Part shown: positions 12,556-45,269 of the stretch, piece by piece
Layout of the letters: each line of letters opens with the position of its first letter
Position numbering within the stretch: position 1 is the first letter of the stretch
Program-made: the position numbers and the translations under genes
Notes under the pieces: generated by a model
Databases searched by the model: none
What the model was told of the DNA's origin: nothing
The model's input: only the letters and a program-made list of their open reading frames with translations
Origin: Rhodospirillaceae bacterium
Lineage (GTDB): Bacteria; Pseudomonadota; Alphaproteobacteria; GCA-2731375
NCBI GenBank assembly: GCA_018701215.1
Contig: JABIWH010000012.1
Span: forward strand, 3,164 to 67,163
Length of the DNA: 64,000 nucleotides
Reading direction: 5' to 3'

Positions 12556-13971
12556 TTATTCGTTTGCAATTATCGCCGTGGCGGCGCTTGCATCATCCAG
12601 CACCGCGTCCAAGTCTACATCGCCCGCGCCGGGCACCTTGATCACCGTAAAGGTGAAATCATCCGCCGCCAGGGGAATGGTCGCATCCAGGCCCATCTTG
12701 GCACCGACGCCTCCGTCCGTGGTGGTCGGGTCCAACTTGGAGGCTTGGGTATTGTTGACCACCAGCAAATCCTGATCCGCCTGAAAGCGCGTTGCGATGG
12801 CCCATTCCACCGCCTCGCCATCATGAATATTGACGTCCTTGTCAACCACGACCACCTGCTTGATATCGTAGTGGGCGGCGAAGGCACCCATCATGATATT
12901 CTTGGCCTGGCCTTCCTGCTTCTTGTCGATCTTGACCACCAGATGATAGCGGCAGATGCCGCCGCGTGAGAGATGCACGTCCAGCACGGCTGGGTCATGG
13001 CGCTGCAGGGATTCCAATATGGTCGCCTCGCGCGGCAGGCCGCCCAGCAGCAGATGCTCCATGCCGCCGCCGACGATGGTGTGGAAAATCGCGCCTTCCC
13101 GGTGCGTGATTGTATCAACCTGGATCACATGGCGGTTGGCGCGGCGGCCGTAATATTGCGGGAACTCGCCGAACGGCCCCTCGGGTTCGGCCACGCCGGG
13201 CAGCACCCGGCCTTCCAGAACGATTTCCGCATGCGCCGGCACCCGAACGTTATTGGTTTTGCATTTGACCATTTCCACCGGTGCGCCGTGCAGGGCGCCA
13301 ACGATTTCCATTTCGTCAAAATCCATGGGCACGATGGCCTGGCTGGCCAATAGAGACGCGGGATCGACGCCGATCACGATGGCGACTTCCAGGGCCTGGC
13401 CGGCTTCCTCGGCCATTTGGCTGTAGGTCCAGGTATGGCGCGGCAACAACAGGACGCCGATGCGGTCCTTGCCGCTGATCTGGCAGCGGTGGATGGAGAC
13501 GTTCTGGATACCGTTCTTAGGATTGCGGGAAATCATCAGGCCGGCCGCGATATATGGCCCACTGTCCAATTCGTTGTGCGTGGGCACGGGCAATTGGCCG
13601 TTAATATCGACGTCTGTGTGCACCACCGCCTGTACCGGAGCGTCCTCGACCTCGACCCAAGGCAGCGGATTACGCACCGCATCCTGATAGCGCGCGATCA
13701 GGTCATCTTCGGATACGCCAAGACAATCACCGATCCATTTGCGCGAGGCCAACAGATTGGCGGCCACGGGTATCTCGTGGCCGTCGGGTTTGGGAAAGAG
13801 CACCGCCTTGTCCAGTTCCAGCTGATCGGAGACCGCGGCCAGTTCATGCACAAGGCCCACACCCGGTTTGGCCACCGCCAGACGGTCGGTGGCGGCAAGA
13901 TGGGTCAGCCATTCGCGCAGATTCTTGCTGCAATGATTGGCTGATGGTGCCGGGGCTTTTTCGGCGGTCAT
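12556..13971 (-). CDS. UbiD-family (prFMN-dependent) decarboxylase
   Basis: 471 aa with UbiD family signatures throughout (the central E...HxxG..E region and the C-terminal VVVVDKDVNIHD). No ubiX-like partner is present in the window. Confidence 0.85.
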   Translation of the reverse strand: MTAEKAPAPSANHCSKNLREWLTHLAATDRLAVAKPGVGLVHELAAVSDQLELDKAVLFPKPDGHEIPVAANLLASRKWIGDCLGVSEDDLIARYQDAVRNPLPWVEVEDAPVQAVVHTDVDINGQLPVPTHNELDSGPYIAAGLMISRNPKNGIQNVSIHRCQISGKDRIGVLLLPRHTWTYSQMAEEAGQALEVAIVIGVDPASLLASQAIVPMDFDEMEIVGALHGAPVEMVKCKTNNVRVPAHAEIVLEGRVLPGVAEPEGPFGEFPQYYGRRANRHVIQVDTITHREGAIFHTIVGGGMEHLLLGGLPREATILESLQRHDPAVLDVHLSRGGICRYHLVVKIDKKQEGQAKNIMMGAFAAHYDIKQVVVVDKDVNIHDGEAVEWAIATRFQADQDLLVVNNTQASKLDPTTTDGGVGAKMGLDATIPLAADDFTFTVIKVPGAGDVDLDAVLDDASAATAIIANE

Positions 13972-23155: not shown

Positions 23156-24499
23156 CTAGTCCTGGCTCTCCATATCGTCGACCAGCTCTGCGAAGCTTTC
23201 CTGCACCGCATCGGCATCGGTATCCGAGGCAGTGACGATTTCCTCCAATTCGATATCCGGGTTCATTGCCACGCTCATCGGCGTCGGGGCCATGGCGACG
23301 AAATCGCCCATATCTTCCGACGCCACCGCCTCGCGCCGCAGGCTGCGCCAGATGGCGAACAGACAGAGCAGCGCCATGGCGCCCGCGATGGTGTAAAAAA
23401 AACCTTTCGGCCCTGCCAGATCCATGGCCAGGGCCGCGATGGGCGCGCCTAAAGCCGAGCCCACCGAGGCGACCAACACCAGGGCACCGCTGGCCGCCAC
23501 CATCTGACTGGGGTTGAGATAGTCGTTGGTATGCGCTGTACAGAGCGCATACAGCGGCGTCGAAAGACCGCCGATCAAGGCGATCACCAGATAGGCCGAC
23601 CAGCTGGCACCGATACCATTGCTCGCCACATCCCCGCCGAAGCCGCCCGCAAAGTTTGGCGCGATAACGGCAACGGCCGCACCGGCCGCGCAGGTTGCGA
23701 TGATGACCCAACGCCGCCCGATAACGTCGGAGGCTTTTCCCAAGGGATATTGCAAAAAGACGCCGCCGAGAACCAAGGCCCCCATGAAAAGCGAGATCTG
23801 TCCCACCGAAAGGCCGATTTCGGCGGCATAAACGGCCCCCATACCGAACACCGCACCCATCATGACACCGTTCATGAACATGCCGGAGACCCCCAGGGGC
23901 GAGACCTGGAACAGCTGACGAATGCCGACATTTTCCGAAGTGTTGAATTCCGGCGCCCGGCTGACCGAGAGCAGAATGGGAATGACGGCGATGGAGACCA
24001 GGACGGAAATCAGCACGAACAATTCGTACGATGAAGGCGCGGCGATGTTCAGCATGAATTGTCCCCCCGCCATGCCGCCCAGGGAGATCAACATATAGAA
24101 GCTGAGCAGTTGCCCACGGGTTTCATTTTCCGAGGCGTCGTTGAGCCAGCTTTCCGCCACGATATACAACCCCGCGTAGGCGATACCGGTCACGCAGCGC
24201 ATAAGCCACCAAACCCAGGGGTCAATGATCACCGCATGCAGCAGGATCGAGGTAGAGGCCAATGACGCCATGGCACCGAAACTGCGGACATGGCCGACCC
24301 TGGTGACGATTTTCGGCACGATCGTGGCGCCGACCAGCATGCCGATGAAATATCCCGACATCACCAATCCGGTAGTGGTGACGCCAAAGCCTTCCATGGA
24401 AGCGCGCAAGCCCAGCAACGAGCCCTGCAAGCCATTGCCCAGCATGATCAGGCCAAGGCCCAGAAACAATGCCCAACTATCGGAGATTACCCGTAGCAC
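23156..24499 (-). CDS. MFS transporter
   Basis: 447 aa with ~12 predicted TM helices and an acidic C-terminal tail. Confidence 0.85.
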   Translation of the reverse strand: MLRVISDSWALFLGLGLIMLGNGLQGSLLGLRASMEGFGVTTTGLVMSGYFIGMLVGATIVPKIVTRVGHVRSFGAMASLASTSILLHAVIIDPWVWWLMRCVTGIAYAGLYIVAESWLNDASENETRGQLLSFYMLISLGGMAGGQFMLNIAAPSSYELFVLISVLVSIAVIPILLSVSRAPEFNTSENVGIRQLFQVSPLGVSGMFMNGVMMGAVFGMGAVYAAEIGLSVGQISLFMGALVLGGVFLQYPLGKASDVIGRRWVIIATCAAGAAVAVIAPNFAGGFGGDVASNGIGASWSAYLVIALIGGLSTPLYALCTAHTNDYLNPSQMVAASGALVLVASVGSALGAPIAALAMDLAGPKGFFYTIAGAMALLCLFAIWRSLRREAVASEDMGDFVAMAPTPMSVAMNPDIELEEIVTASDTDADAVQESFAELVDDMESQD

Positions 24500-24588
24500 C
24501 CTGCATCACCTCATGGAGCTGTCGAAATTTAGCGGTCGAAGCTGGCGCCAGATAAAACCCATGGAAACACGCGGATCGTCGCCGCGCC

Positions 24589-25470
24589 TTATTTTGCCAG
24601 ATGTTTCCGCACGTGATCCAGGAATACATCCAACCTATCATGATGGGCCCAGTGGCCGGCGCCTTCGATGGCGGCGACGGAGGCGTTCTGGAAACTTTCC
24701 AGGCGGCCGTCCTGGGCCGGGTCCGTGGCCCAGCTTTCCGTACCGCGAACCAGTAACGTCGGGCAGGTAATGCGCGACCATAGATGGCGCACATCGTCCG
24801 TGGTCAAGCCATAGGGGCGAAAAATGCGCACATAGTTGTCGAACTTCCAACTATAGGTGCCGTCCTCGTTCTGGGTGGCGCCATGCACGGTCAAATGCCG
24901 GGCCTGTTCCTCGGTCAAATGAGGATTCTCTTCCTGCATCCGCCGAAAGGCATCTTCCAGGGAGGCATAGCGCCGGGGCGTGCGGCCCGACAATTTTTTC
25001 AATTCCTCGGCCCATTCGTTCAGGCGGGTATCGATGGTCTTGCCGGCATTCTTGGCCAGATTGGCGGGCGATGAACCCAAACCTTCAATAGCCGTGATGC
25101 TTTTGACGCTGTCGGGGTACAGACCGGCATATTGCAAACTGATCATGCCGCCCAGGGAATGGCTGAGGATGGTCACCGGGGCCATGTTCTTTTGTTGCAC
25201 CAGGTGGGCGATATCGTAGACATATTCGGGCATGGTATAGCTGCCGCCCATGCTCCATTGGCTATCGCCGTGGCCGCGCAGATCCGGCGCGATGATGTGA
25301 TATTCATCGCGGAAGGCCTCCGCCACCCAGTCCCAGTTGCGGCAATGATCCCGGCCGCCATGCACCAACAGCATGGGCGGCGCGCCCTCGTTGCCCCAGT
25401 CCACGTAATGCAGACGCAGGCGTTGCGAGAAATAAACGTGGCTGGCGGGACCGGAAGTGATTGCTGGCAA
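24589..25470 (-). CDS. alpha/beta-fold hydrolase
   Basis: HGG oxyanion motif (LLVHGGRDH), nucleophile elbow GHSLGG and a C-terminal His. Confidence 0.85.
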   Translation of the reverse strand: MPAITSGPASHVYFSQRLRLHYVDWGNEGAPPMLLVHGGRDHCRNWDWVAEAFRDEYHIIAPDLRGHGDSQWSMGGSYTMPEYVYDIAHLVQQKNMAPVTILSHSLGGMISLQYAGLYPDSVKSITAIEGLGSSPANLAKNAGKTIDTRLNEWAEELKKLSGRTPRRYASLEDAFRRMQEENPHLTEEQARHLTVHGATQNEDGTYSWKFDNYVRIFRPYGLTTDDVRHLWSRITCPTLLVRGTESWATDPAQDGRLESFQNASVAAIEGAGHWAHHDRLDVFLDHVRKHLAK

Positions 25471-27857: not shown

Positions 27858-27975
27858 CCGCAGAACAACCAGTACGGCGATTCAACATTAGTTGGATCGC
27901 CGTTCGGATTCAGGCTGCACGCGGGCCAGTGAAGGGCTATTCTCTCTGCACATGATTCTGCGGGAGGAGACGGCA

Positions 27976-28818
27976 ATGTTTTCGAGGCACAGATGGCTTG
28001 ATACGGGACTCGGCACGGGCTTGATCATTTTGCTGGCGGCGGCCTCGGCGAATGCCGGCAGCAAGGGCGGCATGTACGACATGAGTTCGATGATCAACGA
28101 AGCCCATCCCTTCGCCGTCCCCAGCTATAACCGCGCGCCAGGCACCATGGCGCCTGCACCAGCCATGCGTCCCATCGCTCCGCCCTCGCCCACTTTGCGC
28201 TACACCCCACCACCACCACCCGTGGCACAAGCCAGTGCCAGCGGTTCGGCACCCTACCGGCCCTTTGGCGACATCGTGGCCGGCGACTGGTTCAGCCGCT
28301 TCTATATCGCCGCCGGCGGCGGCTTGCATTTGCAAAGCGATCTGGACGGCAGCACCGCCGGCGCCTCGTACAGTATTGAATTTGATCCGGGCTTCACCAT
28401 GCATGGCGCCCTGGGCACCTATCTGGGCCGGGACTTCCGCATAGAAGGGGAACTTGCCTATCGCATGGCCGAATATGACCAGGGCACGGCCGGCGGCGCG
28501 ACAAGCATGCCAACCGGCGATCTGAAAATGGCCACGGGCATGGCCAATGTCTACTACGACGTGCACCTGGGCTCGTCCTTCGTGCCGTACGTTGGCGGCG
28601 GCCTTGGCATCGCGCAAATAGAAAGCACCGCCGCGACCATTGGCGGCGTCACGGCCGCAGCCAAGGATGCCACGGAATTCGCTTATCAAGCCATCATTGG
28701 TGTCACTTATGAATACGACCGCAGCTGGAGTTTGGGCCTGGACGCCCGCTATATCGGCACCGCCGACGAAGATGTCTCCGCCACCGCCATTACGTTGAAC
28801 GTGCGCTACAGTCTGTAA
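27976..28818 (+). CDS. outer-membrane beta-barrel protein (Omp25/RopB-like porin family)
   Basis: Signal peptide (MFSRHRWLDTGLGTGLIILLAAASANA), a Pro-rich linker, then alternating amphipathic beta-strands ending in the aromatic-rich ...ITLNVRYSL. GGAGGAG RBS. Confidence 0.75.
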   Translation: MFSRHRWLDTGLGTGLIILLAAASANAGSKGGMYDMSSMINEAHPFAVPSYNRAPGTMAPAPAMRPIAPPSPTLRYTPPPPPVAQASASGSAPYRPFGDIVAGDWFSRFYIAAGGGLHLQSDLDGSTAGASYSIEFDPGFTMHGALGTYLGRDFRIEGELAYRMAEYDQGTAGGATSMPTGDLKMATGMANVYYDVHLGSSFVPYVGGGLGIAQIESTAATIGGVTAAAKDATEFAYQAIIGVTYEYDRSWSLGLDARYIGTADEDVSATAITLNVRYSL

Positions 28819-28824
28819 GGAGGC

Positions 28825-29655
28825 TCAAGCGCCATCGGCGAAGCGGGCATCGCGCCAGGCGATGGCGGCGTTGACACCTTGCTCCTTGCGAATGCGGGCG
28901 AACTCTTGCTTTTCCCATGACGGCGTGGAGTTGATCTCCACATCGAGATCCAGGCCGCTCAACAGCGCCTGGCGCATACCCATGATTTCATAACTGCGGT
29001 TGATCGCCTGCTTGGAAAGCCGCACCGAGACCGAAGCCGAACGCGCAATCTTGATCGCCATGGCGCGGGCCTGCGCCTGCAAATCGTCTTCTGCCACCAA
29101 GCGGTTGACCAGCCCCATACGCAGGGCATCGGACGCAGATAGACGGTCCTCGCCGGTCAGCATCAGTTCCTTGGCCTGTTTCGGGCCGGTTATCCAGGGC
29201 AACAGCATGGCCACGGCGCCGGTGCCGAAGCGCACCTCCGGTTCACCAAATATCGCGCTTTCCGTGGCAATGGTAATGTCACAGGCCAACGAGGCCTCGA
29301 AGGCGCCGGCCAGGCAATAACCGTGTACGGCGGCAATGGTCGGCTTGGGACAGTCCCAGAACTTGATGATAAAATCGAATTGCAGCCCCATCTGGGCCCG
29401 CACCTTGTCGATGCTGTCCAGTTTCCGCTCGCCCGATGCCATCAGGTCAAAGCCGGCCGAAAACGTACGCCCCGCGCCACTGACAATGACCACGTGAACA
29501 TCATCATCCTGGGCGAAATCATCCATTGCGGCGATGCTGGCCTGCATCAACTCGTTGTTGAAAGCGTTCAGCTTGTTGGGACGGTTGAAGGTCAGGAAGC
29601 CAATGCCGTCTTCCCGCCGCGTTAAAATAAGATCCTGCTCGGACACAATCTTCAC
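28825..29655 (-). CDS. enoyl-CoA hydratase/isomerase family protein
   Basis: Crotonase fold motifs (VVIVSGAGRTFSAGFDL, AAVHGYCLAGAFE). Confidence 0.85.
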   Translation of the reverse strand: MKIVSEQDLILTRREDGIGFLTFNRPNKLNAFNNELMQASIAAMDDFAQDDDVHVVIVSGAGRTFSAGFDLMASGERKLDSIDKVRAQMGLQFDFIIKFWDCPKPTIAAVHGYCLAGAFEASLACDITIATESAIFGEPEVRFGTGAVAMLLPWITGPKQAKELMLTGEDRLSASDALRMGLVNRLVAEDDLQAQARAMAIKIARSASVSVRLSKQAINRSYEIMGMRQALLSGLDLDVEINSTPSWEKQEFARIRKEQGVNAAIAWRDARFADGA

Positions 29656-38918: not shown

Positions 38919-39062
38919 TGCAGCATTGCACGGGCCGTTGCAGGCAATATCTCACAGTTTATTAACGTTCAAAAGCCTTCTGCCTGACGATGGCACAATG
39001 GGCCGGTGCGATATTGCGTCATCGCGGGCAATACACTGCCCGGTTTAAAAGGGAAAAAACAA

Positions 39063-39839
39063 ATGAGCACTGACATACTTGTCGATGCCGACGCCCTAAG
39101 GGAAGATGTGAAGGATAAGTACCGGGATGTCGCGCTCGACCCGCATGGAGAGTTTCATTTCCATACGGGCCGTCCGCTGGCGAAGCGCCTGGGCTATGAC
39201 AATGCGGTTGTTGGCGCCATGCCTGATGCCGCGGTCGAATCTTTCGCGGGCGTCGGCAATCCATTTTCACTGCGCCCATTGCAGGCCGGCGAGCGTGTCG
39301 TCGACCTTGGTTCCGGTGCCGGTTTTGACTGTTTCATCGCGGCCCAGCAGGTTGGCGCCGAAGGTCATGTCATCGGGATCGATATGACGCCGGAAATGCT
39401 GGCCAAGTCGCGCGCTACGGCCCAGGTGATGGATCTGGCACAGGTTGAATTCCGCGAAGGCCTGCTGGAAGAGCTGCCGGTGGAAGACGGCCAGGCGGAT
39501 GTGGTCATCGCCAATGGCGTGATTAACCTTTGTTCCGACAAACAGCAGGTGTTTGCCGAGATTTGGCGCGTCCTGCGGCCAGGCGGCGTGCTGCAGTTCG
39601 CTGATATCGCCAATGGCCGGCCGGTGCCAGAGGCGGCCGTCAACAATATTGATTTGTGGACTGCTTGAATCGCTGGTGGCATGCCGTGTGCAGGCTGGCA
39701 GAAGATGATGTTGGATACGGGCTTCAAGAACGGGCAGATGGGCCCGCCCGTGGATACATTTGGCGGCGCGGGGGGTGAAACCAATGCGCGCCGGTTCGAG
39801 GTTTTCGGTTACGCCTTCATGGCCCAGAAACCTCTATAG
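39063..39839 (+). CDS. ArsM/AS3MT-like SAM-dependent methyltransferase with in-frame TGA (candidate selenocysteine) at 39666..39668; alternatively a pseudogene
   Basis: SAM motif VVDLGSGAGFD. The ORF stops at a TGA exactly where the catalytic Cys of AS3MT (..LWGE-C-LGGALYW..) aligns (IDLWTA-TGA-IAGGMPCAGW). The same frame continues for 56 more conserved codons to a TAG at 39837. Confidence 0.55.
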
Positions 39840-39916
39840 GCGAGACTAACTTTCGGCCCGTCAGCCTCACCCTCTCAAGTGGCTGGCGGGCCGTTTTATT
39901 TTCAACAGCTGTCTTC

Positions 39917-40972
39917 TTATACTGGCTCCAACGGTGCGTTGAGTTCGGTGTCGGCGACAATGATGCCGCCGCGATTGCCGATTTCGATGCTGCCGTAGCG
40001 TTGCGCATAAACCTCCGGCAAAGGCCGGGCGCCGGGAATAGCCAGCCATAGCCGCAACAGATGGCGGCGGCGGGCCAGATCGCCCCATTCCTCATAGGCG
40101 GTGCGGTCATGCAGCAGGGTATGATTGTGAACAAACAGCAAATCGCCCGGCTGCAATGGGAATTCCAGATTTAAGGCCGGGTCGTCAGCCAGAGCGTCGA
40201 ACATGTCCAGAGCTTCATTCTGGGCATCGCTGAGCTGGGGCACGCCTTCCAGGCGTTGCGCCGAGCGGACATAGTGCGGTGCATAGAGCGCGGAAAGATG
40301 GCCTGCATAGGCATTGAATACGGGAATTTCAAAATATTCCCGACCGTCCGCGGTGACCTCGCCACGCCGATCGGTCGCCATGGGCTCGAACAACAGCTTG
40401 GCCAGATCGGGGCGGCGTTGACGCATTTCGTTGTAGATTGTCATGGAACTGACCAGGCCGGACTGCCCGCCCGACTTGGCGCCGCGCAGACACATCAAGC
40501 CGACAATATCGCAAGAATCAGTGTGATAATTCTGCCGCTCCGTGGTTTGGTAAATGCGCACCGAGGCATCGGTGGTGGAGAGGCCCAGGTCGCAGACATG
40601 GCCCAGAATATGGCCCTTGCCGTTCTGCGAGCGGGCTTTGCCCATGTGTGTGCCGATGCCATAGAACAACGCCGCCGCCATCGCGATGTCATCGGCATGC
40701 GAGGGCAGCCCCCGCAGCGCCACGAAGCCGCGCCCATGCAGGCATTCATGCACCGCCCCGGCGATCACCGGCATGCTCTCGGGCAGGGGGAAATCAGCCT
40801 TGGTCATGGCGGCAATGTCGCCGCCCGCTTCAAGGTATGCGCCTGCCTGGGCTTCCATCTCGGCGACCTGCGCATCGTTCAAGGTGACCAGCCAATCGTT
40901 GGCGGCGGCCTGGTCCGGACCATACCAGGCGGATGGTCCGGTGACTTTCGGCGGTAATTCTGCGATTTCCAA
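39917..40972 (-). CDS. TauD/TfdA-family Fe(II)/2-oxoglutarate-dependent dioxygenase
   Basis: HxD iron motif (YHTDSCD), a distal His (LFVHNHTLLHDR) and the 351-aa length typical of the family. Confidence 0.8.
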   Translation of the reverse strand: MEIAELPPKVTGPSAWYGPDQAAANDWLVTLNDAQVAEMEAQAGAYLEAGGDIAAMTKADFPLPESMPVIAGAVHECLHGRGFVALRGLPSHADDIAMAAALFYGIGTHMGKARSQNGKGHILGHVCDLGLSTTDASVRIYQTTERQNYHTDSCDIVGLMCLRGAKSGGQSGLVSSMTIYNEMRQRRPDLAKLLFEPMATDRRGEVTADGREYFEIPVFNAYAGHLSALYAPHYVRSAQRLEGVPQLSDAQNEALDMFDALADDPALNLEFPLQPGDLLFVHNHTLLHDRTAYEEWGDLARRRHLLRLWLAIPGARPLPEVYAQRYGSIEIGNRGGIIVADTELNAPLEPV

Positions 40973-41087: not shown

Positions 41088-42482
41088 ATGAGCTTGGCAA
41101 GCAGTGAGGCAACCTTGGGCGTGATCGAAGAACTGCGGGCATTGTTGGGCGAGCGCCTTTCGACCGCCGATGCGGTGCGCGATGCCCATGGCCGTGACGA
41201 AAGCTGGCACCCGACCGAGGCGCCCGATGCGGTGGCCTTTGCGCAATCGACCGAGGAGGTGTCGGCGATTGTGAAAATCTGCCATGCCGCCGGCACCCCG
41301 ATCATCCCGTACGGCGCCGGCACCTCGGTCGAAGGGCATATTCAGGCGACACGGGGGGGCATCTGCGTCGATGTAGGCGGCATGAACGAAGTGTTGGAGG
41401 TTCACGCCGAAGATCTGGATTGCACGGTGCAGCCCGGCGTACGGCGCAAACAGTTGAACGATTACCTGCGCGACACGGGATTGTTCTTTCCCATTGATCC
41501 CGGCGCCGATGCCTCCATCGGCGGCATGACCGGAACCAGGGCTTCGGGCACCAACGCCGTGCGCTACGGCACCATGCGCGAGAACGTCATGTCGTTGACC
41601 GTGGTTCTGGCCAACGGCGAGGTCATTCGCACGGCGCGGCGGGCGCGCAAATCATCCGCCGGCTATGATCTGACACGGCTGTTCGTCGGCTCGGAAGGCA
41701 CCCTGGGCATCATCACCGAGATTACCCTGCGCCTGTACGGCATTCCGGAGAATATATCTTCGGCAGTGGTGCCGTTTGAGACCCTTGAAGGGGCCGTTGA
41801 TACGACGATCTGCACCATTCAGTCCGGCATTCCCATCGCCCGTATTGAGCTTCTGGATGATGTTCAGATGGATGCGCTGAACAGATATTCCAAGATGGAT
41901 CATCCGGTAAAACCAACACTGTTTTTGGAATTCCATGGCACCGACGCCGGCGTGGCCGAACAGATCGCCATGGTCAAGGCCTTTGGCGAGGATTTCGGCG
42001 CCGGTGAGTTCCAATGGTCCGATCAGCTGGAAGACCGCAATCGTCTGTGGCAGGCCCGCCATGATGTGGCCTATGCCTGCAAGGCGCTGCGGCCCGGTTG
42101 CGAGATCTGGGCCACGGATGTCTGCGTGCCGCTTTCACGGCTGGCGGAATGCATCGCGGAAACCCGCAAGGATCTGGAAGGCGCCTCGATCCCCGCGCCG
42201 TTGTGCGGCCATGTTGGTGACGGCAATTTCCACTTGGCTTTTGTTCTGGACCCAAACGTACCGGCGGAAATGCACGAGGCCGAGGAATTGAACGAACGCC
42301 TGGTCAACCGGGCCCTGGCCATGGACGGCACCTGCACCGGCGAACATGGCGTGGGGCTGGGCAAGCAGAAATACATGCGGGCCGAACATGGCGATGCCAT
42401 CGAGGTCATGCGCGCCGTCAAGGCGGCCATTGATCCCGACAACATCATGAACCCCGGCAAAATGCTGCCGCCGCAAAACTAG
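41088..42482 (+). CDS. FAD-linked oxidase (D-lactate dehydrogenase / GlcD-like)
   Basis: N-terminal FAD-binding PCMH domain (IIPYGAGTSVEGH) and a C-terminal FAD-oxidase domain ending in IMNPGKML. Confidence 0.85.
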   Translation: MSLASSEATLGVIEELRALLGERLSTADAVRDAHGRDESWHPTEAPDAVAFAQSTEEVSAIVKICHAAGTPIIPYGAGTSVEGHIQATRGGICVDVGGMNEVLEVHAEDLDCTVQPGVRRKQLNDYLRDTGLFFPIDPGADASIGGMTGTRASGTNAVRYGTMRENVMSLTVVLANGEVIRTARRARKSSAGYDLTRLFVGSEGTLGIITEITLRLYGIPENISSAVVPFETLEGAVDTTICTIQSGIPIARIELLDDVQMDALNRYSKMDHPVKPTLFLEFHGTDAGVAEQIAMVKAFGEDFGAGEFQWSDQLEDRNRLWQARHDVAYACKALRPGCEIWATDVCVPLSRLAECIAETRKDLEGASIPAPLCGHVGDGNFHLAFVLDPNVPAEMHEAEELNERLVNRALAMDGTCTGEHGVGLGKQKYMRAEHGDAIEVMRAVKAAIDPDNIMNPGKMLPPQN

Positions 42483-43488: not shown

Positions 43489-44061
43489 GTGAGCACGGGC
43501 GACGCGATTAATACGGACGCAACCGGCGTCACACGACAGGCGATCGTCCTGGTGGACGAACATGACAATCAAGTTGGTCTTTGCGAAAAGTTGGAGGCCC
43601 ATCGTCAGGGCCTGCTGCACCGCGCATTTTCGGTCATCATCAAGAACGATGCCGGACAAATCCTGTTGCAACAACGGGCAGCCGGCAAGTATCACTCGCC
43701 AGGTCTGTGGGCCAATGCCTGTTGCGGACATCCCGGCGAGGGTGATGATGTGGGCCGGGCAGCACGGCGCCGCCTGGGCGAGGAAATGGGTTTCGAGACC
43801 GATTTATACCCTGGCCGGCAGCACAGCTATCGCGCCGATGTGGGCGGCGGTTTGATCGAAAATGAATTCGTGCATGTCTTCTTTGGCTGTTTCAATGGCG
43901 CCATCATGGCCAATGCCGACGAGGCCGCAGATTACCGTTGGCTTGACGCGGATGCCTTGCTGGCCGAGGTGGCCGCCGATCCGGAAAGTTACAGCACTTG
44001 GTTTCGCGACTATCTATTTCATTTCGGCGATGAAATTATCGCCTGGAAACCCGAGATTTAG
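43489..44061 (+). CDS. idi: isopentenyl-diphosphate delta-isomerase, type 1 (Nudix)
   Basis: LHRAFSVIIKN...LLQQRAAGKYHSPGLWANACCGHP and a downstream E-rich Nudix box (GEEMGFE). Confidence 0.85.
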   Translation: MSTGDAINTDATGVTRQAIVLVDEHDNQVGLCEKLEAHRQGLLHRAFSVIIKNDAGQILLQQRAAGKYHSPGLWANACCGHPGEGDDVGRAARRRLGEEMGFETDLYPGRQHSYRADVGGGLIENEFVHVFFGCFNGAIMANADEAADYRWLDADALLAEVAADPESYSTWFRDYLFHFGDEIIAWKPEI

Positions 44062-44066
44062 CGCGT

Positions 44067-45269
44067 TCAAAGACCCAGAACTTGCTTGGCGACAATATTT
44101 CGCTGAATTTCGTTGGAGCCGCCATAGATGGATGAAGCCCGGAAATTCAGGAATTTCGGCACCGCGGGTACCGCATGGACGGGGCCGATGGGTTCAATGT
44201 TGTTGCCGGGCACACGGGCTTCGGGCTGATAGGCCGCGCCGTAATAATGCACCGCCTCGACCATCAGTTCGGTAACCCACTGATTGGTTTCAGAGCCCAG
44301 AACCTTCATGATCGAGCTGGCCGGACCGGGCCTGCCGCGCTGGACAATTTCGGCAATGGTCCGGTGTTCGGTATATTCCGCCGCCTGTTGCTTAATCTCC
44401 GCCGCCGCGACCTTCAGGGCAAAGGCCGGGTCGTCGCCCAAAACGCCACCGGCCGCCGGTTCGGCAGCCGTAATTTCATGCAGCTTGCCAAGCGACGAGG
44501 CGACCATGGCCGCATAGGCGCTGCCGCCGCGTTCGAACTCCAGCAGATATTTGGCCACCGTCCAGCCGTCGTTCTCCTCGCCCAGACGATTTGCCACGGG
44601 GACCCGCACATCATCGAAGAAAACCTGATTAACCTCGTGATCGCCGGCCAGAGTGATGATCGGCTCGACCTTGATGCCTGGATCGTCCATATCGAACAAT
44701 AGGAAACTGATGCCTTCCTGGCGCTTCTCGGTATCGGCGGTGCGCACCAGACAAAAGATCCGGTCCGCATGCTGGGCCCCGGTTGTCCAGATTTTCGAGC
44801 CGTTGATGACATATTCATCACCGTCGCGGACCGCCCGCGTCTGTAACGAGGCCAGATCCGAGCCCGAGCCCGGTTCGGAATAGCCCTGGCACCAGATATC
44901 CTCGCCCGAGAGGATTCTTGGCAGGTAGTGGGCCTTTTGTTCGTCGGTGCCGAACTGCATGATCACCGGGCCGACCAAGGCCAGGCCCATGAGATAGACC
45001 GTTGGTGTGCCCACCTTGCCGGCCTCGGAATCGTAGATATAGCGCTGCATGGGCGTCCAGCCGGTGCCGCCGTATTCAGCCGGCCAGGTCGGCGCGATCC
45101 AGCCCTTTTCGTAGAGGATCTTGTACCAGCGCTGGCTGATATCGAATTCCGCGAAGACACCGGAATTCAGGCGCGTGGCAGCGCGCAGGTCATCCGTCAG
45201 TTTCTCGTCGAAAAAAGCCCGCACCTCGTCGCGGAAAGCCAGATCGTCGGTACTCATTTCCAAATGCAT
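44067..45269 (-). CDS. acyl-CoA dehydrogenase family protein (paralog 1 of 3)
   Basis: 400 aa. It shares ~70% identity by eye with the adjacent gene at 45336 (WCQGYSEPGSGSDLASLQTRA...). Confidence 0.9.
   Translation of the reverse strand: MHLEMSTDDLAFRDEVRAFFDEKLTDDLRAATRLNSGVFAEFDISQRWYKILYEKGWIAPTWPAEYGGTGWTPMQRYIYDSEAGKVGTPTVYLMGLALVGPVIMQFGTDEQKAHYLPRILSGEDIWCQGYSEPGSGSDLASLQTRAVRDGDEYVINGSKIWTTGAQHADRIFCLVRTADTEKRQEGISFLLFDMDDPGIKVEPIITLAGDHEVNQVFFDDVRVPVANRLGEENDGWTVAKYLLEFERGGSAYAAMVASSLGKLHEITAAEPAAGGVLGDDPAFALKVAAAEIKQQAAEYTEHRTIAEIVQRGRPGPASSIMKVLGSETNQWVTELMVEAVHYYGAAYQPEARVPGNNIEPIGPVHAVPAVPKFLNFRASSIYGGSNEIQRNIVAKQVLGL

What the first reader, a model, noticed from the sequence alone, without database searches (positions are those of the whole stretch)
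39063..39839. ArsM/AS3MT-like methyltransferase interrupted by an in-frame TGA exactly at the catalytic-cysteine position: candidate selenoprotein
The SAM-methyltransferase ORF ends at a TGA (39666-39668), yet the same frame continues for 56 more codons to a TAG at 39837. The peptide read across the TGA is IDLWTA-[TGA]-IAGGMPCAGWQKMMLDTGF. This aligns residue-for-residue with the conserved third cysteine motif of arsenite methyltransferases (..VLWGE-C-LGGALYWKE..), putting the TGA on the catalytic Cys. Sec-for-Cys substitution at a redox or catalytic cysteine is the hallmark of genuine selenoproteins. An AS3MT-like selenoprotein family has been reported from marine metagenomes. No selA/selB/selD genes lie in the window, and I could not identify a convincing SECIS hairpin by eye in the 60 nt after the TGA. 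A pseudogene or a sequencing error therefore remain possible.
Basis: partly seen in the sequence, partly recalled or inferred. Interest (0 to 1): 0.7.

Follow-up and report, generated by a model that had tools for sequence, protein, structure and literature searches.

The report
ArsM-like methyltransferase selenoprotein gene
The in-frame TGA is almost certainly a real selenocysteine codon with its own conserved recoding hairpin, in a methyltransferase related to arsenite methyltransferases; this selenoprotein family is already known, but public annotations routinely cut it short at 201 residues.

Summary
The ORF starts at ATG 39063, has TGA at 39666-39668 (codon 202) and stays open to TAG 39837-39839.

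The TGA is not an error or a pseudogene lesion:
- It sits at the same codon in every close ortholog and in at least 119 species-representative genomes (Alpha-, Beta- and Gammaproteobacteria, Acidimicrobiia, other Actinomycetota).
- The 55-57 codons after it evolve under purifying selection like the rest of the gene.
- It aligns with Cys in most full-length homologs, and with CmArsM Cys224 / human AS3MT Cys206.

It is a hairpin at 39678-39696 with loop CGUGU. It meets the published bacterial SECIS criteria and shows one compensatory pair. It is present in 98% of TGA forms and 12% of Cys forms.

In five other genomes the gene lies next to selA-selB (tRNA-Sec in three, selD in one). Sec machinery in the window's own genome could not be checked.

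Arsenite-methyltransferase-like selenoproteins have been reported since 2007-2008, so this is a new member of a known kind. One twist: this subfamily lacks two of the three canonical ArsM cysteines and keeps only Cys157 and Sec202. In Actinomycetota it sits in a rhodanese-rich, sulfur-stress-like operon. Its substrate is therefore uncertain.

The parts
39049..39054 (+). Putative ribosome-binding site (AAGGGA), 8 nt before the ATG
   Evidence: Read from the sequence. Inference only.
39063..39665 (+). Codons 1-201 of the methyltransferase: SAM-binding Rossmann core with the DLGSGAG motif and conserved Cys157 (NLC)
   Evidence: Pfam Methyltransf_31/11/25. NCBIfam ArsM-type models are the best hits. 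PDB ArsM alignments. Public gene calls end here at 201 aa.
39666..39668 (+). UGA codon 202, read as selenocysteine; equivalent to CmArsM Cys224 / hAS3MT Cys206 (UxxG motif)
   Evidence: The TGA is conserved in all orthologs and in at least 119 species genomes.
39663..39703 (+). 41-nt stretch that is invariant at the DNA level among orthologs sharing only 85-100% protein identity. It is the only invariant run of 14 nt or more in the gene.
   Evidence: Third-position divergence is 0.022 in codons 202-216 against 0.42 and 0.44 in the flanking parts.
39673..39701 (+). Bacterial SECIS hairpin. The core stem pairs 39678-39684 with 39690-39696 (with an A39681 x G39693 mismatch); the apical loop is 39685-39689 (CGUGU). 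A possible lower stem pairs 39673-39675 with 39699-39701.
   Evidence: It is the MFE fold of 39666-39705 (-11.5 kcal/mol). 95.5% of cells are paired over 80 distinct sequences, with a G-C/U-A compensatory pair (63/16/1), against 15-45% paired in slid controls. It is present in 98% of TGA forms and 12% of Cys forms. It meets the bSECIS criteria quoted in PMC13188914.
39669..39839 (+). Codons 203-258 plus the TAG stop: the C-terminal part of the enzyme (helix, strand 6, helix, strand 7 of the Rossmann sheet)
   Evidence: The peptide is conserved. d12 is 0.12 and d3 is 0.44, like the rest of the gene. An AF2 model of a Cys-form homolog places two sheet strands here at high pLDDT.
39854..39903 (+). 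Intrinsic terminator: a 13-bp G+C-rich hairpin followed by UUUUAUUUU, starting 15 nt after the distal TAG
   Evidence: Fold energy -31 kcal/mol, z = -4.7, 0 of 200 shuffles as good. The simple scan finds a terminator-like site here. It may also serve the convergent TauD gene that ends at 39917.

Best explanation
window:39063-39839 is one gene for a 258-residue selenoprotein.

Recoding. While the ribosome reads UGA202, the mRNA hairpin just downstream (core 39678-39696, loop CGUGU, 16 nt after the UGA) is bound by the Sec-specific elongation factor SelB. SelB delivers Sec-tRNA(Sec), so translation continues to the TAG at 39837. The recoding is shown at the sequence and comparative level only; SelB binding is inferred.

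Product. It is a class I SAM-dependent methyltransferase of the arsenite-methyltransferase (ArsM/AS3MT) lineage. It lacks the ArsM C-terminal domain. Sec202 occupies the position of the substrate-binding Cys224/Cys206.

Substrate. In this subfamily the only other conserved thiol is Cys157. The other two canonical ArsM cysteines are Val/Ile64 and Gly152. I infer that Sec202 and Cys157 together hold a soft, thiophilic substrate next to the SAM methyl group. My rough split is: trivalent arsenic or a related metalloid about 40%; a sulfur or selenium species such as sulfide, selenide, persulfide or methanethiol about 30%; something else about 30%.
For: 1. The anatomy is as described.
2. The TGA is conserved at codon 202 in 8 orthologous contigs whose final stops differ (TAG, TAA or TGA). 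It is also present in at least 119 species genomes from several phyla, each with a conserved extension of about 56 codons.
3. Selection: first- and second-position divergence is 0.087 upstream and 0.12 downstream of the TGA, and third-position divergence is 0.42 and 0.44, so the extension is translated.
4. Sec/Cys pairing: 90 of the top 120 homologs have Cys here, and ArsM structures have the As-binding Cys here.
5. SECIS:
- Synonymous sites are frozen for 15 codons after the UGA.
- The hairpin is 95.5% paired in 80 sequences, with a compensatory G-C to U-A pair.
- It is the MFE of the window sequence at -11.5 kcal/mol.
- It meets all four bSECIS criteria: 5-nt loop, G then U at loop positions 2-3, 16-nt spacing, MFE at or below -7.5.
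- Control: the hairpin is found in 98% of 119 TGA forms and in 12% of 51 Cys forms. Those 6 Cys forms, and a TGG form, still carry the SECIS sequence verbatim, which marks them as recent conversions.
6. selA-selB lie 1-4 kb or less from the gene in 5 genomes, with tRNA-Sec in 3 and selD in 1.
7. The terminator follows the distal stop, not the TGA.
8. The part after the TGA encodes two strands of the Rossmann sheet, so a 201-aa product would be an incomplete fold.
9. The family is listed as a selenoprotein in the literature.
Against: - No selA, selB, selC or selD lies in the 64-kb window, and the rest of this genome could not be searched.
- The window's own hairpin has an internal A x G mismatch, and its folding energy is no better than shuffled sequence (z = 0.14). 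The case for it rests on comparison, not thermodynamics.
- Only one stem pair shows compensatory change, possibly from few evolutionary events.
- Rfam finds nothing.
- There is no protein-level evidence.
- For function: the NCBIfam ArsM score (220.8) is below the cut-off of 263, two of the three catalytic Cys are missing, and no ars genes are nearby.
Confidence: 0.88

Rival explanations
1. Pseudogene: a nonsense mutation (TGC/TGT to TGA) has inactivated an ordinary Cys-containing methyltransferase.
For: Many homologs carry Cys at this column. No Sec machinery lies in the window.
Against: The same TGA is found in at least 119 species from several phyla. The downstream frame is intact and under purifying selection. 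A conserved hairpin is specific to the TGA forms.
Confidence: 0.02
2. Sequencing or assembly error at 39666-39668.
For: None beyond the general possibility in metagenome assemblies.
Against: Independent assemblies (L006, L007, L133, L134), 99.97-99.995% identical to the window, carry the same TGA. So do all orthologs.
Confidence: 0.005
3. TGA is a true stop. The cell makes a 201-residue protein, and the downstream 43-52 codon ORF that gene callers predict is separate or untranslated. The conserved hairpin would then serve another role, such as mRNA stability or attenuation.
For: All public annotations call it this way.
Against: The downstream peptide is colinear with the C-terminus of the Cys-form homologs and is under protein-level selection. 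There is no conserved start codon: the window's ATG 39681 is Leu, Val or Ile in most of the family. The 201-aa product would lack strands 6 and 7 of the fold. The hairpin co-occurs with TGA, not with TGC/TGT.
Confidence: 0.03
4. SECIS-independent read-through or other recoding of UGA (for example near-cognate Trp insertion) rather than selenocysteine.
For: Two homologs have Trp (TGG) at this column. Sec machinery was not shown for this genome.
Against: The Trp form still carries the SECIS sequence verbatim, so it looks like a very recent TGA to TGG change. The Cys/UGA pairing, the SECIS-type hairpin and the adjacency to selA-selB-selC in other genomes all point to Sec. TGA is used as an ordinary stop elsewhere in the window.
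Confidence: 0.04

Closest known systems
Arsenite S-adenosylmethyltransferase selenoprotein family (PRK11873/NF008823; UxxG motif; Fomenko et al. 2007 Science 315:387; Zhang & Gladyshev 2008 GOS study; Peng et al. 2016)
   Same: It is a SAM methyltransferase of the ArsM lineage with Sec in a U-x-x-G motif (here U-I-A-G) at the Cys206/Cys224 position. The family is reported from marine metagenomes (8 Sec sequences and 245 Cys homologs in GOS) and from 39 sequenced bacteria.
   Different: I could not compare directly with the published example (WP_011987699.1). The window protein scores below the NF008823 cut-off and lacks the Cys72 and Cys174 equivalents. It may therefore be a side branch of what those surveys lumped under 'ArsM'.
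Canonical ArsM/AS3MT enzymes (CmArsM 4FR0/4FSD/6CX6, CrArsM 5EVJ, human AS3MT 8XT7)
   Same: These are the best sequence and fold matches among solved structures (E = 7.6e-26 by sequence; TM 0.60-0.69 for a Cys-form homolog's model). The SAM-binding core is the same, and the '(G/T)x-C/U-(L/I)(G/A)GG' loop carries the As-binding Cys.
   Different: Identity is about 30%. There is no C-terminal domain (258 aa against about 320-400). Cys72 is Val and Cys174 is Gly. A different conserved Cys (Cys157, five residues after the Cys174 position) appears instead. No ars gene context is seen.
NCBIfam ArsM-fusion selenoproteins (NF041537 ArsM/AhpD, NF041536 ArsM/DUF2284, NF047649 methyltransferase/UXPK-star; Haft & Tolstoy 2025, as cited in PMC13188914)
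   Same: These are the highest-scoring NCBIfam models (225, 206 and 207 bits) over the methyltransferase part, with Sec in the same UxxG position.
   Different: The scores are far below the cut-offs (510, 575, 460). Only model positions of about 9-227 match. The window protein has no AhpD, DUF2284 or UXPK C-terminal module and only one Sec.
ArsMs that work with fewer cysteines (two-Cys BlArsM, Huang et al. 2018; single-Cys TtArsM of Thermus, PMC8649762)
   Same: They show that As(III) methylation does not need the full cysteine triad, so a Cys157 + Sec202 pair could suffice.
   Different: The two-Cys enzyme keeps the canonical Cys174/Cys224 pair (from my own knowledge of Huang et al. 2018, not checked here). 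TtArsM is a distant lineage that uses histidines. Neither is a selenoprotein.
H2S/methanethiol S-methyltransferases MddH, MddM1 and MddM2
   Same: They are cytosolic SAM methyltransferases that act on small chalcogen nucleophiles and are widespread in marine Proteobacteria and Actinomycetota. This is a possible functional analogy, given the rhodanese, MBL and DsrE neighbours in Actinomycetota.
   Different: They are described as UbiE- or UbiG-family proteins of 204-210 aa (MddM1/M2) or UbiE-like (MddH), not ArsM-like. No Sec is reported. No sequence comparison was made here.

Membership tests
Bacterial selenoprotein gene (UGA decoded as Sec via SECIS and SelB) | In-frame UGA with the reading frame continuing to a distal stop | tested here: met
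   TGA 39666-39668, frame open to TAG 39837-39839.
Bacterial selenoprotein gene (UGA decoded as Sec via SECIS and SelB) | The UGA aligns with Cys in homologs (Sec/Cys pair) | tested here: met
   Among the top 120 homologs, 90 have Cys, 26 end at this codon and 2 have Trp.
Bacterial selenoprotein gene (UGA decoded as Sec via SECIS and SelB) | UGA and the downstream coding sequence are conserved in orthologs, with purifying selection after the UGA | tested here: met
   8 orthologous contigs. At least 119 species genomes. d12 is 0.12 and d3 is 0.44 downstream, against 0.087 and 0.42 upstream.
Bacterial selenoprotein gene (UGA decoded as Sec via SECIS and SelB) | bSECIS hairpin just after the UGA: 3-9 nt loop, stem of 4 bp or more, G in loop position 1-2 followed by G or U, 16-37 nt spacing, MFE at or below -7.5 kcal/mol | tested here: met
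   Loop CGUGU, spacing 16 nt, MFE -11.5 kcal/mol; criteria from PMC13188914. 95.5% paired in 80 sequences with one compensatory pair. Present in 98% of TGA forms and 12% of Cys forms. Caveat: the window copy has an A x G mismatch in the stem, and its z-score is not significant.
Bacterial selenoprotein gene (UGA decoded as Sec via SECIS and SelB) | selA, selB, selC and selD present in the same genome | not testable with these tools
   None lies in the 64-kb window, and the rest of the genome was out of reach. At family level, selA-selB are adjacent to the gene in L119, L027, L130, L069 (also selD) and L076. tRNA-Sec is present in L027, L130 and L076.
Bacterial selenoprotein gene (UGA decoded as Sec via SECIS and SelB) | Selenium shown in the protein (75Se labelling or mass spectrometry) | not testable with these tools
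   This needs an experiment. Cultured carriers exist (L037 Pseudonocardia asaccharolytica DSM 44247; L097 Actinomycetospora cinnamomea DSM 45771).
Arsenite methyltransferase ArsM/AS3MT (NCBIfam NF008823 / PRK11873) | Class I SAM-dependent methyltransferase fold with a GxGxG SAM motif | tested here: met
   Pfam Methyltransf_31 at 3.6e-31. The AF2 model of a Cys-form homolog is a seven-stranded Rossmann fold whose best PDB matches are ArsM structures.
Arsenite methyltransferase ArsM/AS3MT (NCBIfam NF008823 / PRK11873) | Score at or above the curated family cut-off | tested here: not met
   NF008823 scores 220.8 bits against a cut-off of 263 (with Cys substituted for Sec).
Arsenite methyltransferase ArsM/AS3MT (NCBIfam NF008823 / PRK11873) | Conserved As(III)-binding cysteines (CmArsM Cys72, Cys174, Cys224; at least the Cys174/Cys224 pair) | tested here: not met
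   Only the Cys224 position is kept, as Sec202. Cys72 is replaced by Val/Ile64 (100 of 103 Sec-form sequences; Ser in 2) and Cys174 by Gly152 (all 103). Cys157 (101/103) is conserved at a non-canonical position.
Arsenite methyltransferase ArsM/AS3MT (NCBIfam NF008823 / PRK11873) | Arsenic-resistance gene context (arsR, acr3/arsB, arsC, arsH) | tested here: inconclusive
   The window's neighbours are a BTAD/TPR regulator, TauD, an FAD oxidase and an aldo-keto reductase. Actinomycetota loci have an ArsR-family regulator, but it is fused to rhodanese and accompanied by MBL+rhodanese, MFS and DsrE-like genes. No recognisable arsenic pump or reductase recurred, but the neighbourhood survey was crude.
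Arsenite methyltransferase ArsM/AS3MT (NCBIfam NF008823 / PRK11873) | As(III) methylation activity | not testable with these tools
   This needs an enzyme assay.
ArsM-fusion selenoproteins (NF041537, NF041536, NF047649) | Second domain (AhpD, DUF2284 or UXPK-star tail) with additional Sec, and a score above the cut-off | tested here: not met
   225, 206 and 207 bits against cut-offs of 510, 575 and 460. Only the methyltransferase part of each model is matched. The protein ends ...AFMAQKPL after 258 residues with a single UGA.
MddH/MddM S-methyltransferases | Membership of the UbiE/UbiG-type MddH, MddM1 or MddM2 clades | not tested
   No sequences were in hand. The papers describe them as UbiE/UbiG-family proteins, MddM1/M2 being 204-210 aa. 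The window protein's best family matches are ArsM-type.

The most novel reading that the evidence does not exclude
This widespread subfamily (at least 119 species; abundant marine Rhodospirillaceae-like Alphaproteobacteria and Acidimicrobiia) may not be an arsenite methyltransferase at all. It could be a distinct Sec/Cys157-dependent methyltransferase for reactive sulfur or selenium species (sulfide, persulfide, selenide, methanethiol). That would make it an unrecognised, selenium-dependent route to volatile methylated chalcogens. The hints are three: loss of two canonical As-binding cysteines; the conserved actinobacterial operon of ArsR/BigR-like+rhodanese, the methyltransferase, MBL(persulfide-dioxygenase-like)+rhodanese, MFS and DsrE-like genes; and occasional direct linkage to selA-selB-selC.
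Probability: 0.25. Interest if true: 0.6.

Novelty: new member of a known kind. Interest (0 to 1): 0.3.

Why it matters
The practical point is annotation. Every public gene call examined for this gene ends at residue 201 or calls the tail as a separate 43-52 aa ORF. This affects NCBI, JGI and ENA records across many species and hides a full-length selenoenzyme. The family offers a clean SECIS example with a built-in control: TGA forms against Cys forms, plus 'fossil' SECIS elements in recent Cys and Trp converts. That makes it useful for training selenoprotein and SECIS predictors.

The biological point is modest. The enzyme adds a Sec-dependent methyltransferase to abundant marine Alphaproteobacteria and Acidimicrobiia. 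Its unusual cysteine complement and gene context raise the testable question of whether it methylates arsenic or sulfur/selenium species.

Tried and rejected
- Single-sequence folding of 39660-39740 and 39666-39705 gave z-scores near 0. Thermodynamics alone neither supports nor refutes a SECIS in this G+C-rich gene.
- RNAalifold on 7 close orthologs proposed a larger structure with no covariation, because the region is invariant among them. I replaced it with the hairpin seen across 119 diverse sequences.
- Rfam (gathering thresholds) and ARAGORN found nothing in the window.
- A search for a second selenoprotein gene in the window found none. All TGA-spanning open frames were listed, and the best-looking cases were checked. 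27937-29655(-) is an enoyl-CoA-hydratase-like gene ending at a true TGA stop. 23156-24634(-) has the sequence of a multi-pass membrane transporter (no family search was run) with a normal start.
- My first neighbourhood clustering, using the longest ORFs, was swamped by spurious high-GC antisense ORFs. It was redone with a codon-position G+C filter.
- MddH and MddM1/M2 were considered as the identity of the family and rejected from their published descriptions.
- Looking up the window's 1188-aa protein to find the source contig failed. The FAD oxidase worked.
A Cys-form homolog (P0090, 65% identical) was modelled instead.
- Testing for selA/B/C/D in the window's own genome was not possible.
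Full report
**1. Observation**

- An ORF starts at ATG 39063, preceded by AAGGGA.
- It reaches TGA at 39666-39668, which is codon 202.
- The same frame runs 56 more codons to TAG at 39837-39839.
- The read-through peptide is ...NNIDLWTA-U-IAGGMPCAGWQKMMLDTGF...FGGAGGETNARRFEVFGYAFMAQKPL.

Pfam sees a class I SAM methyltransferase (Methyltransf_31, 3.6e-31). The best NCBIfam matches are all ArsM-type models. Three of them are curated selenoprotein models, but none reaches its cut-off: NF041537 scores 225 against 510, NF008823 (ArsM) 221 against 263, and NF047649 207 against 460.

**2. The TGA is not an accident**

In a protein search, every close relative (84-100% identity; Alphaproteobacteria and 'Rhodospirillaceae' MAGs) is annotated as exactly 201 residues. 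Full-length homologs of 257-260 residues at 64-70% identity cover the whole read-through protein.

I fetched DNA for eight orthologous contigs. In all of them the first stop is TGA at codon 202, the frame stays open for 56-58 codons, and the final stops differ (TAG, TAA or TGA).

Divergence across six orthologs was measured by codon position.

| Region | Positions 1+2 | Position 3 |
|---|---|---|
| Codons 1-201 | 0.087 | 0.42 |
| Codons 217-257 | 0.12 | 0.44 |

The tail is therefore under the same protein-level selection as the body.

A degenerate DNA pattern for D-L-W-T-[AG]-TGA-[IV]-[AG]-G-G was scanned against one genome per species.
- Acidimicrobiia and Ilumatobacteraceae;
- other Actinomycetota, including the cultured Pseudonocardia asaccharolytica DSM 44247 and Actinomycetospora cinnamomea DSM 45771;
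- Alphaproteobacteria, including two complete chromosomes;
- Burkholderiales and Gammaproteobacteria.

Every hit whose sequence did not run off the contig has a conserved extension, about 55-57 codons in most.

The window itself is 99.995% identical over 21.4 kb to GCA_018649745.1 contig JABIHI010000038.1 and 99.986% identical to an independent ENA assembly. Both carry the same TGA. Pseudogene and sequencing error are excluded.

TGA is also used as an ordinary stop elsewhere in the window, so the genetic code is standard.

**3. Sec/Cys pairing**

Among the 120 best homologs, 90 have Cys at this column, 26 end there and 2 have Trp.

The HMMER alignment to solved ArsM structures places codon 202 on the Cys of G-E-C-L-G-G (CmArsM Cys224). 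By motif this corresponds to human AS3MT Cys206, one of the two confirmed As-binding residues (abstract of PMC3877260). The local motif U-I-A-G fits the 'UxxG' motif that a 2026 review lists for the arsenite-methyltransferase selenoprotein.

**4. The SECIS**

Among close orthologs, the 41 nt at 39663-39703 are invariant. This is the only invariant run of 14 nt or more in the gene. Third-position divergence in codons 202-216 is 0.022, against about 0.42 elsewhere. That indicates a constraint at the RNA level.

The 119 diverse sequences reveal the structure (positions counted from the first base after the UGA):
- Positions 10-16 pair with positions 22-28.
- The consensus is G-GCCUGC / GCAGGC-U around the loop CGUGY.
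- In the window this is 39678-39684 pairing with 39690-39696, loop 39685-39689 (CGUGU), with an A x G mismatch because Leu(CUG) is Met(AUG) in this clade.

On 80 distinct 'LPC-type' sequences, 95.5% of cells are paired, against 15-45% when the partner is slid by 1-3 columns. One pair switches cleanly between G-C (63 sequences) and U-A (16), with one exception. No shuffle out of 500 reaches the observed pairing or covariation score.

An actinobacterial 'LPR-type' variant shifts the stem by two nucleotides (GCCC/GGGC) but keeps the same CGUG loop start: CGUGC in 30 of 38 sequences and CGUGA in 6.

The window's 40 nt fold into exactly this hairpin as their MFE (-11.5 kcal/mol). The energy is not better than shuffled sequence (z = 0.14), whereas the consensus versions reach z of about -2.

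The hairpin meets the four published bSECIS constraints: a 3-9 nt loop; G in loop position 1-2 followed by G or U; 16-37 nt between the UGA and the loop (here 16); and MFE at or below -7.5 kcal/mol.

Control. In 51 Cys-form genes from metagenomes, the hairpin is present in only 6, against 98% of the TGA forms. Those 6 encode C-IAGGLPRAGW and retain the LPR-type SECIS sequence verbatim. The typical Cys form encodes C-IAGG[LK]PVDDW and cannot form the stem. The Trp form in Blastococcus deserti is TGG followed by an intact SECIS sequence. These are best read as very recent Sec-to-Cys and Sec-to-Trp conversions. The hairpin therefore tracks the UGA, not the protein sequence.

**5. Sec machinery**

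tblastn with E. coli SelA, SelB and SelD finds nothing in the window, and ARAGORN finds no tRNA there. I could not search the rest of this genome.

At family level the link is direct. selA-selB lie within 1-4 kb or less of the TGA gene in five genomes:
- a Betaproteobacteria MAG (L119), a Burkholderiales MAG (L130) and one uncultured bacterium (L027);
- one Actinomycetota MAG that also carries selD (L069);
- one Mycobacteriales MAG (L076).

tRNA-Sec (anticodon UCA) is next to selB in three of them, L027, L130 and L076.

**6. Gene ends and fold**

A 13-bp G+C-rich hairpin followed by UUUUAUUUU starts 15 nt after the distal TAG (-31 kcal/mol, z = -4.7). Nothing comparable follows the TGA.

The window protein could not be submitted for modelling, so I used a Cys-form homolog (P0090, 65% identical). 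Its AlphaFold2 model has pLDDT 87 and pTM 0.89.
- The residue equivalent to Sec202 lies in a flexible loop after strand 5.
- The part encoded after the TGA forms a helix, strand 6, a helix and strand 7 of the Rossmann sheet, at high confidence.
- A 201-residue product would therefore be an incomplete fold.

Foldseek ranks ArsM structures first (5EVJ, 4FR0, 6CX6; TM 0.60-0.69, 28-32% identity). Other small-molecule methyltransferases follow closely.

**7. What it does**

The recoding is well supported. The chemistry is inferred.

Across 103 Sec-form sequences the only conserved thiol or selenol positions are Cys157 (101/103) and Sec202 (103/103). Cys209 alternates with Arg, and Cys90 is usually Ser. 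The positions of CmArsM Cys72 and Cys174 are Val/Ile64 (100/103; Ser in 2) and Gly152 (103/103).

Known ArsMs normally use two or three cysteines. A single-Cys Thermus enzyme exists, and that paper also cites a two-Cys enzyme. As(III) methylation by a Cys157/Sec202 pair is therefore possible but not assured.

Gene context gives no arsenic signal.
- In the window clade the neighbours are a divergent BTAD/TPR regulator, TauD, an FAD-linked oxidase and an aldo-keto reductase. They vary among close relatives.
- In Actinomycetota, Sec, Cys and Trp forms all sit in a recurring cluster:
  - an ArsR/SmtB (BigR-like) regulator fused to rhodanese;
  - the methyltransferase;
  - sometimes a DsrE-like protein;
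  - an MBL-fold (GloB/persulfide-dioxygenase-like) protein with two rhodanese domains;
  - an MFS transporter.
- That context resembles sulfide/persulfide-stress operons more than ars operons.

The known H2S/MeSH methyltransferases MddH and MddM1/M2 are described as UbiE- or UbiG-type proteins and so appear to be a different family.

My working model: Sec202 and Cys157 hold a soft metalloid or chalcogen substrate next to SAM. I put an arsenic-type substrate slightly ahead of sulfur or selenium species.

**8. Comparison with what is known, and novelty**

'Arsenite S-adenosylmethyltransferase' is an established selenoprotein family:
- Fomenko et al. 2007, as listed in the review PMC13188914;
- 8 Sec sequences against 245 Cys homologs in the GOS marine metagenomes;
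- 39 organisms in a 2016 survey.

NCBIfam also has curated models for fused ArsM selenoproteins.

The window gene is therefore a new member of a known kind. What may be new in detail:
- the non-canonical cysteine complement and the sub-threshold ArsM score;
- the breadth of the TGA form (at least 119 species);
- systematic truncation in public annotation;
- the sulfur-type operon context in Actinomycetota;
- the 'fossil SECIS' in recent Cys and Trp converts.

**9. Verdict**

This is a genuine selenoprotein gene with an identifiable SECIS. It belongs to an already described family, so interest is moderate to low (0.3). The main open points are the Sec machinery of this particular genome and the true substrate.

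Noticed in passing
window, whole 64 kb: Among 51 coding-like ORFs of 150 aa or more, the stop codons are TAG 26, TAA 14 and TGA 11. TAG-rich, TGA-poor usage is unusual for a 60% G+C proteobacterium. This was not checked with proper gene calls.
   Followed up: no
L001-L003, about 13400-13780 (orthologs of window 41088-42482): In the P0093 lineage (translated for L001-L003), the FAD-linked oxidase gene is interrupted after '...DTGLF' by an insertion of about 370 nt. The coding sequence resumes at a repeated 'GLFFP'. The window copy is intact. It may be a small mobile element.
   Followed up: no
L029, L071, L113, L120, L135, L136 and about 15 other Actinomycetota loci: There is a recurring cluster around the methyltransferase: an ArsR/BigR-like regulator fused to rhodanese, (DsrE-like), an MBL-fold protein with two rhodanese domains, and an MFS transporter. 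Sec, Cys and Trp forms all share it. It looks like a sulfide/persulfide or selenium stress operon.
   Followed up: partly
L027 1858-5774; L130 3793-7171; L119 4626-7866; L069 2875-7429; L076 2917-7717: In these loci selA-selB lie directly beside the TGA-containing methyltransferase gene. tRNA-Sec is present in L027, L130 and L076, and selD in L069. In L130 the tRNA-Sec gene ends about 150 nt from the methyltransferase gene. This may be a mobile 'selenoprotein plus machinery' cassette.
   Followed up: partly
L135 (Blastococcus deserti, P0040); L141 and five other metagenome loci: A Trp form (TGG) and six Cys forms (TGC) still carry the LPR-type SECIS sequence unchanged after the codon. They look like very recent losses of Sec that left a fossil SECIS.
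   Followed up: partly
window 39006-39668 and 39681-39839; L006-L011, L133, L134: Every public gene call for this gene ends at 201 aa, and several add a separate 43-52 aa ORF for the tail. NCBI names it 'methyltransferase domain-containing protein'. This is a systematic mis-annotation.
   Followed up: yes
window 44058-45269 (-): An acyl-CoA dehydrogenase gene ends in TGA, followed by two sense codons and a hard stop. That is superficially the 'UXX-star' selenoprotein pattern, but it is probably chance.
   Followed up: no
window 31088-52482: This stretch is 99.995% identical to GCA_018649745.1 contig JABIHI010000038.1 (91,133 bp). The window probably corresponds to positions of about 3301-67300 of that contig. 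The FAD oxidase protein of this population is indexed in 142 blocks of the assembly collection, so the organism is common in sequenced samples.
   Followed up: partly
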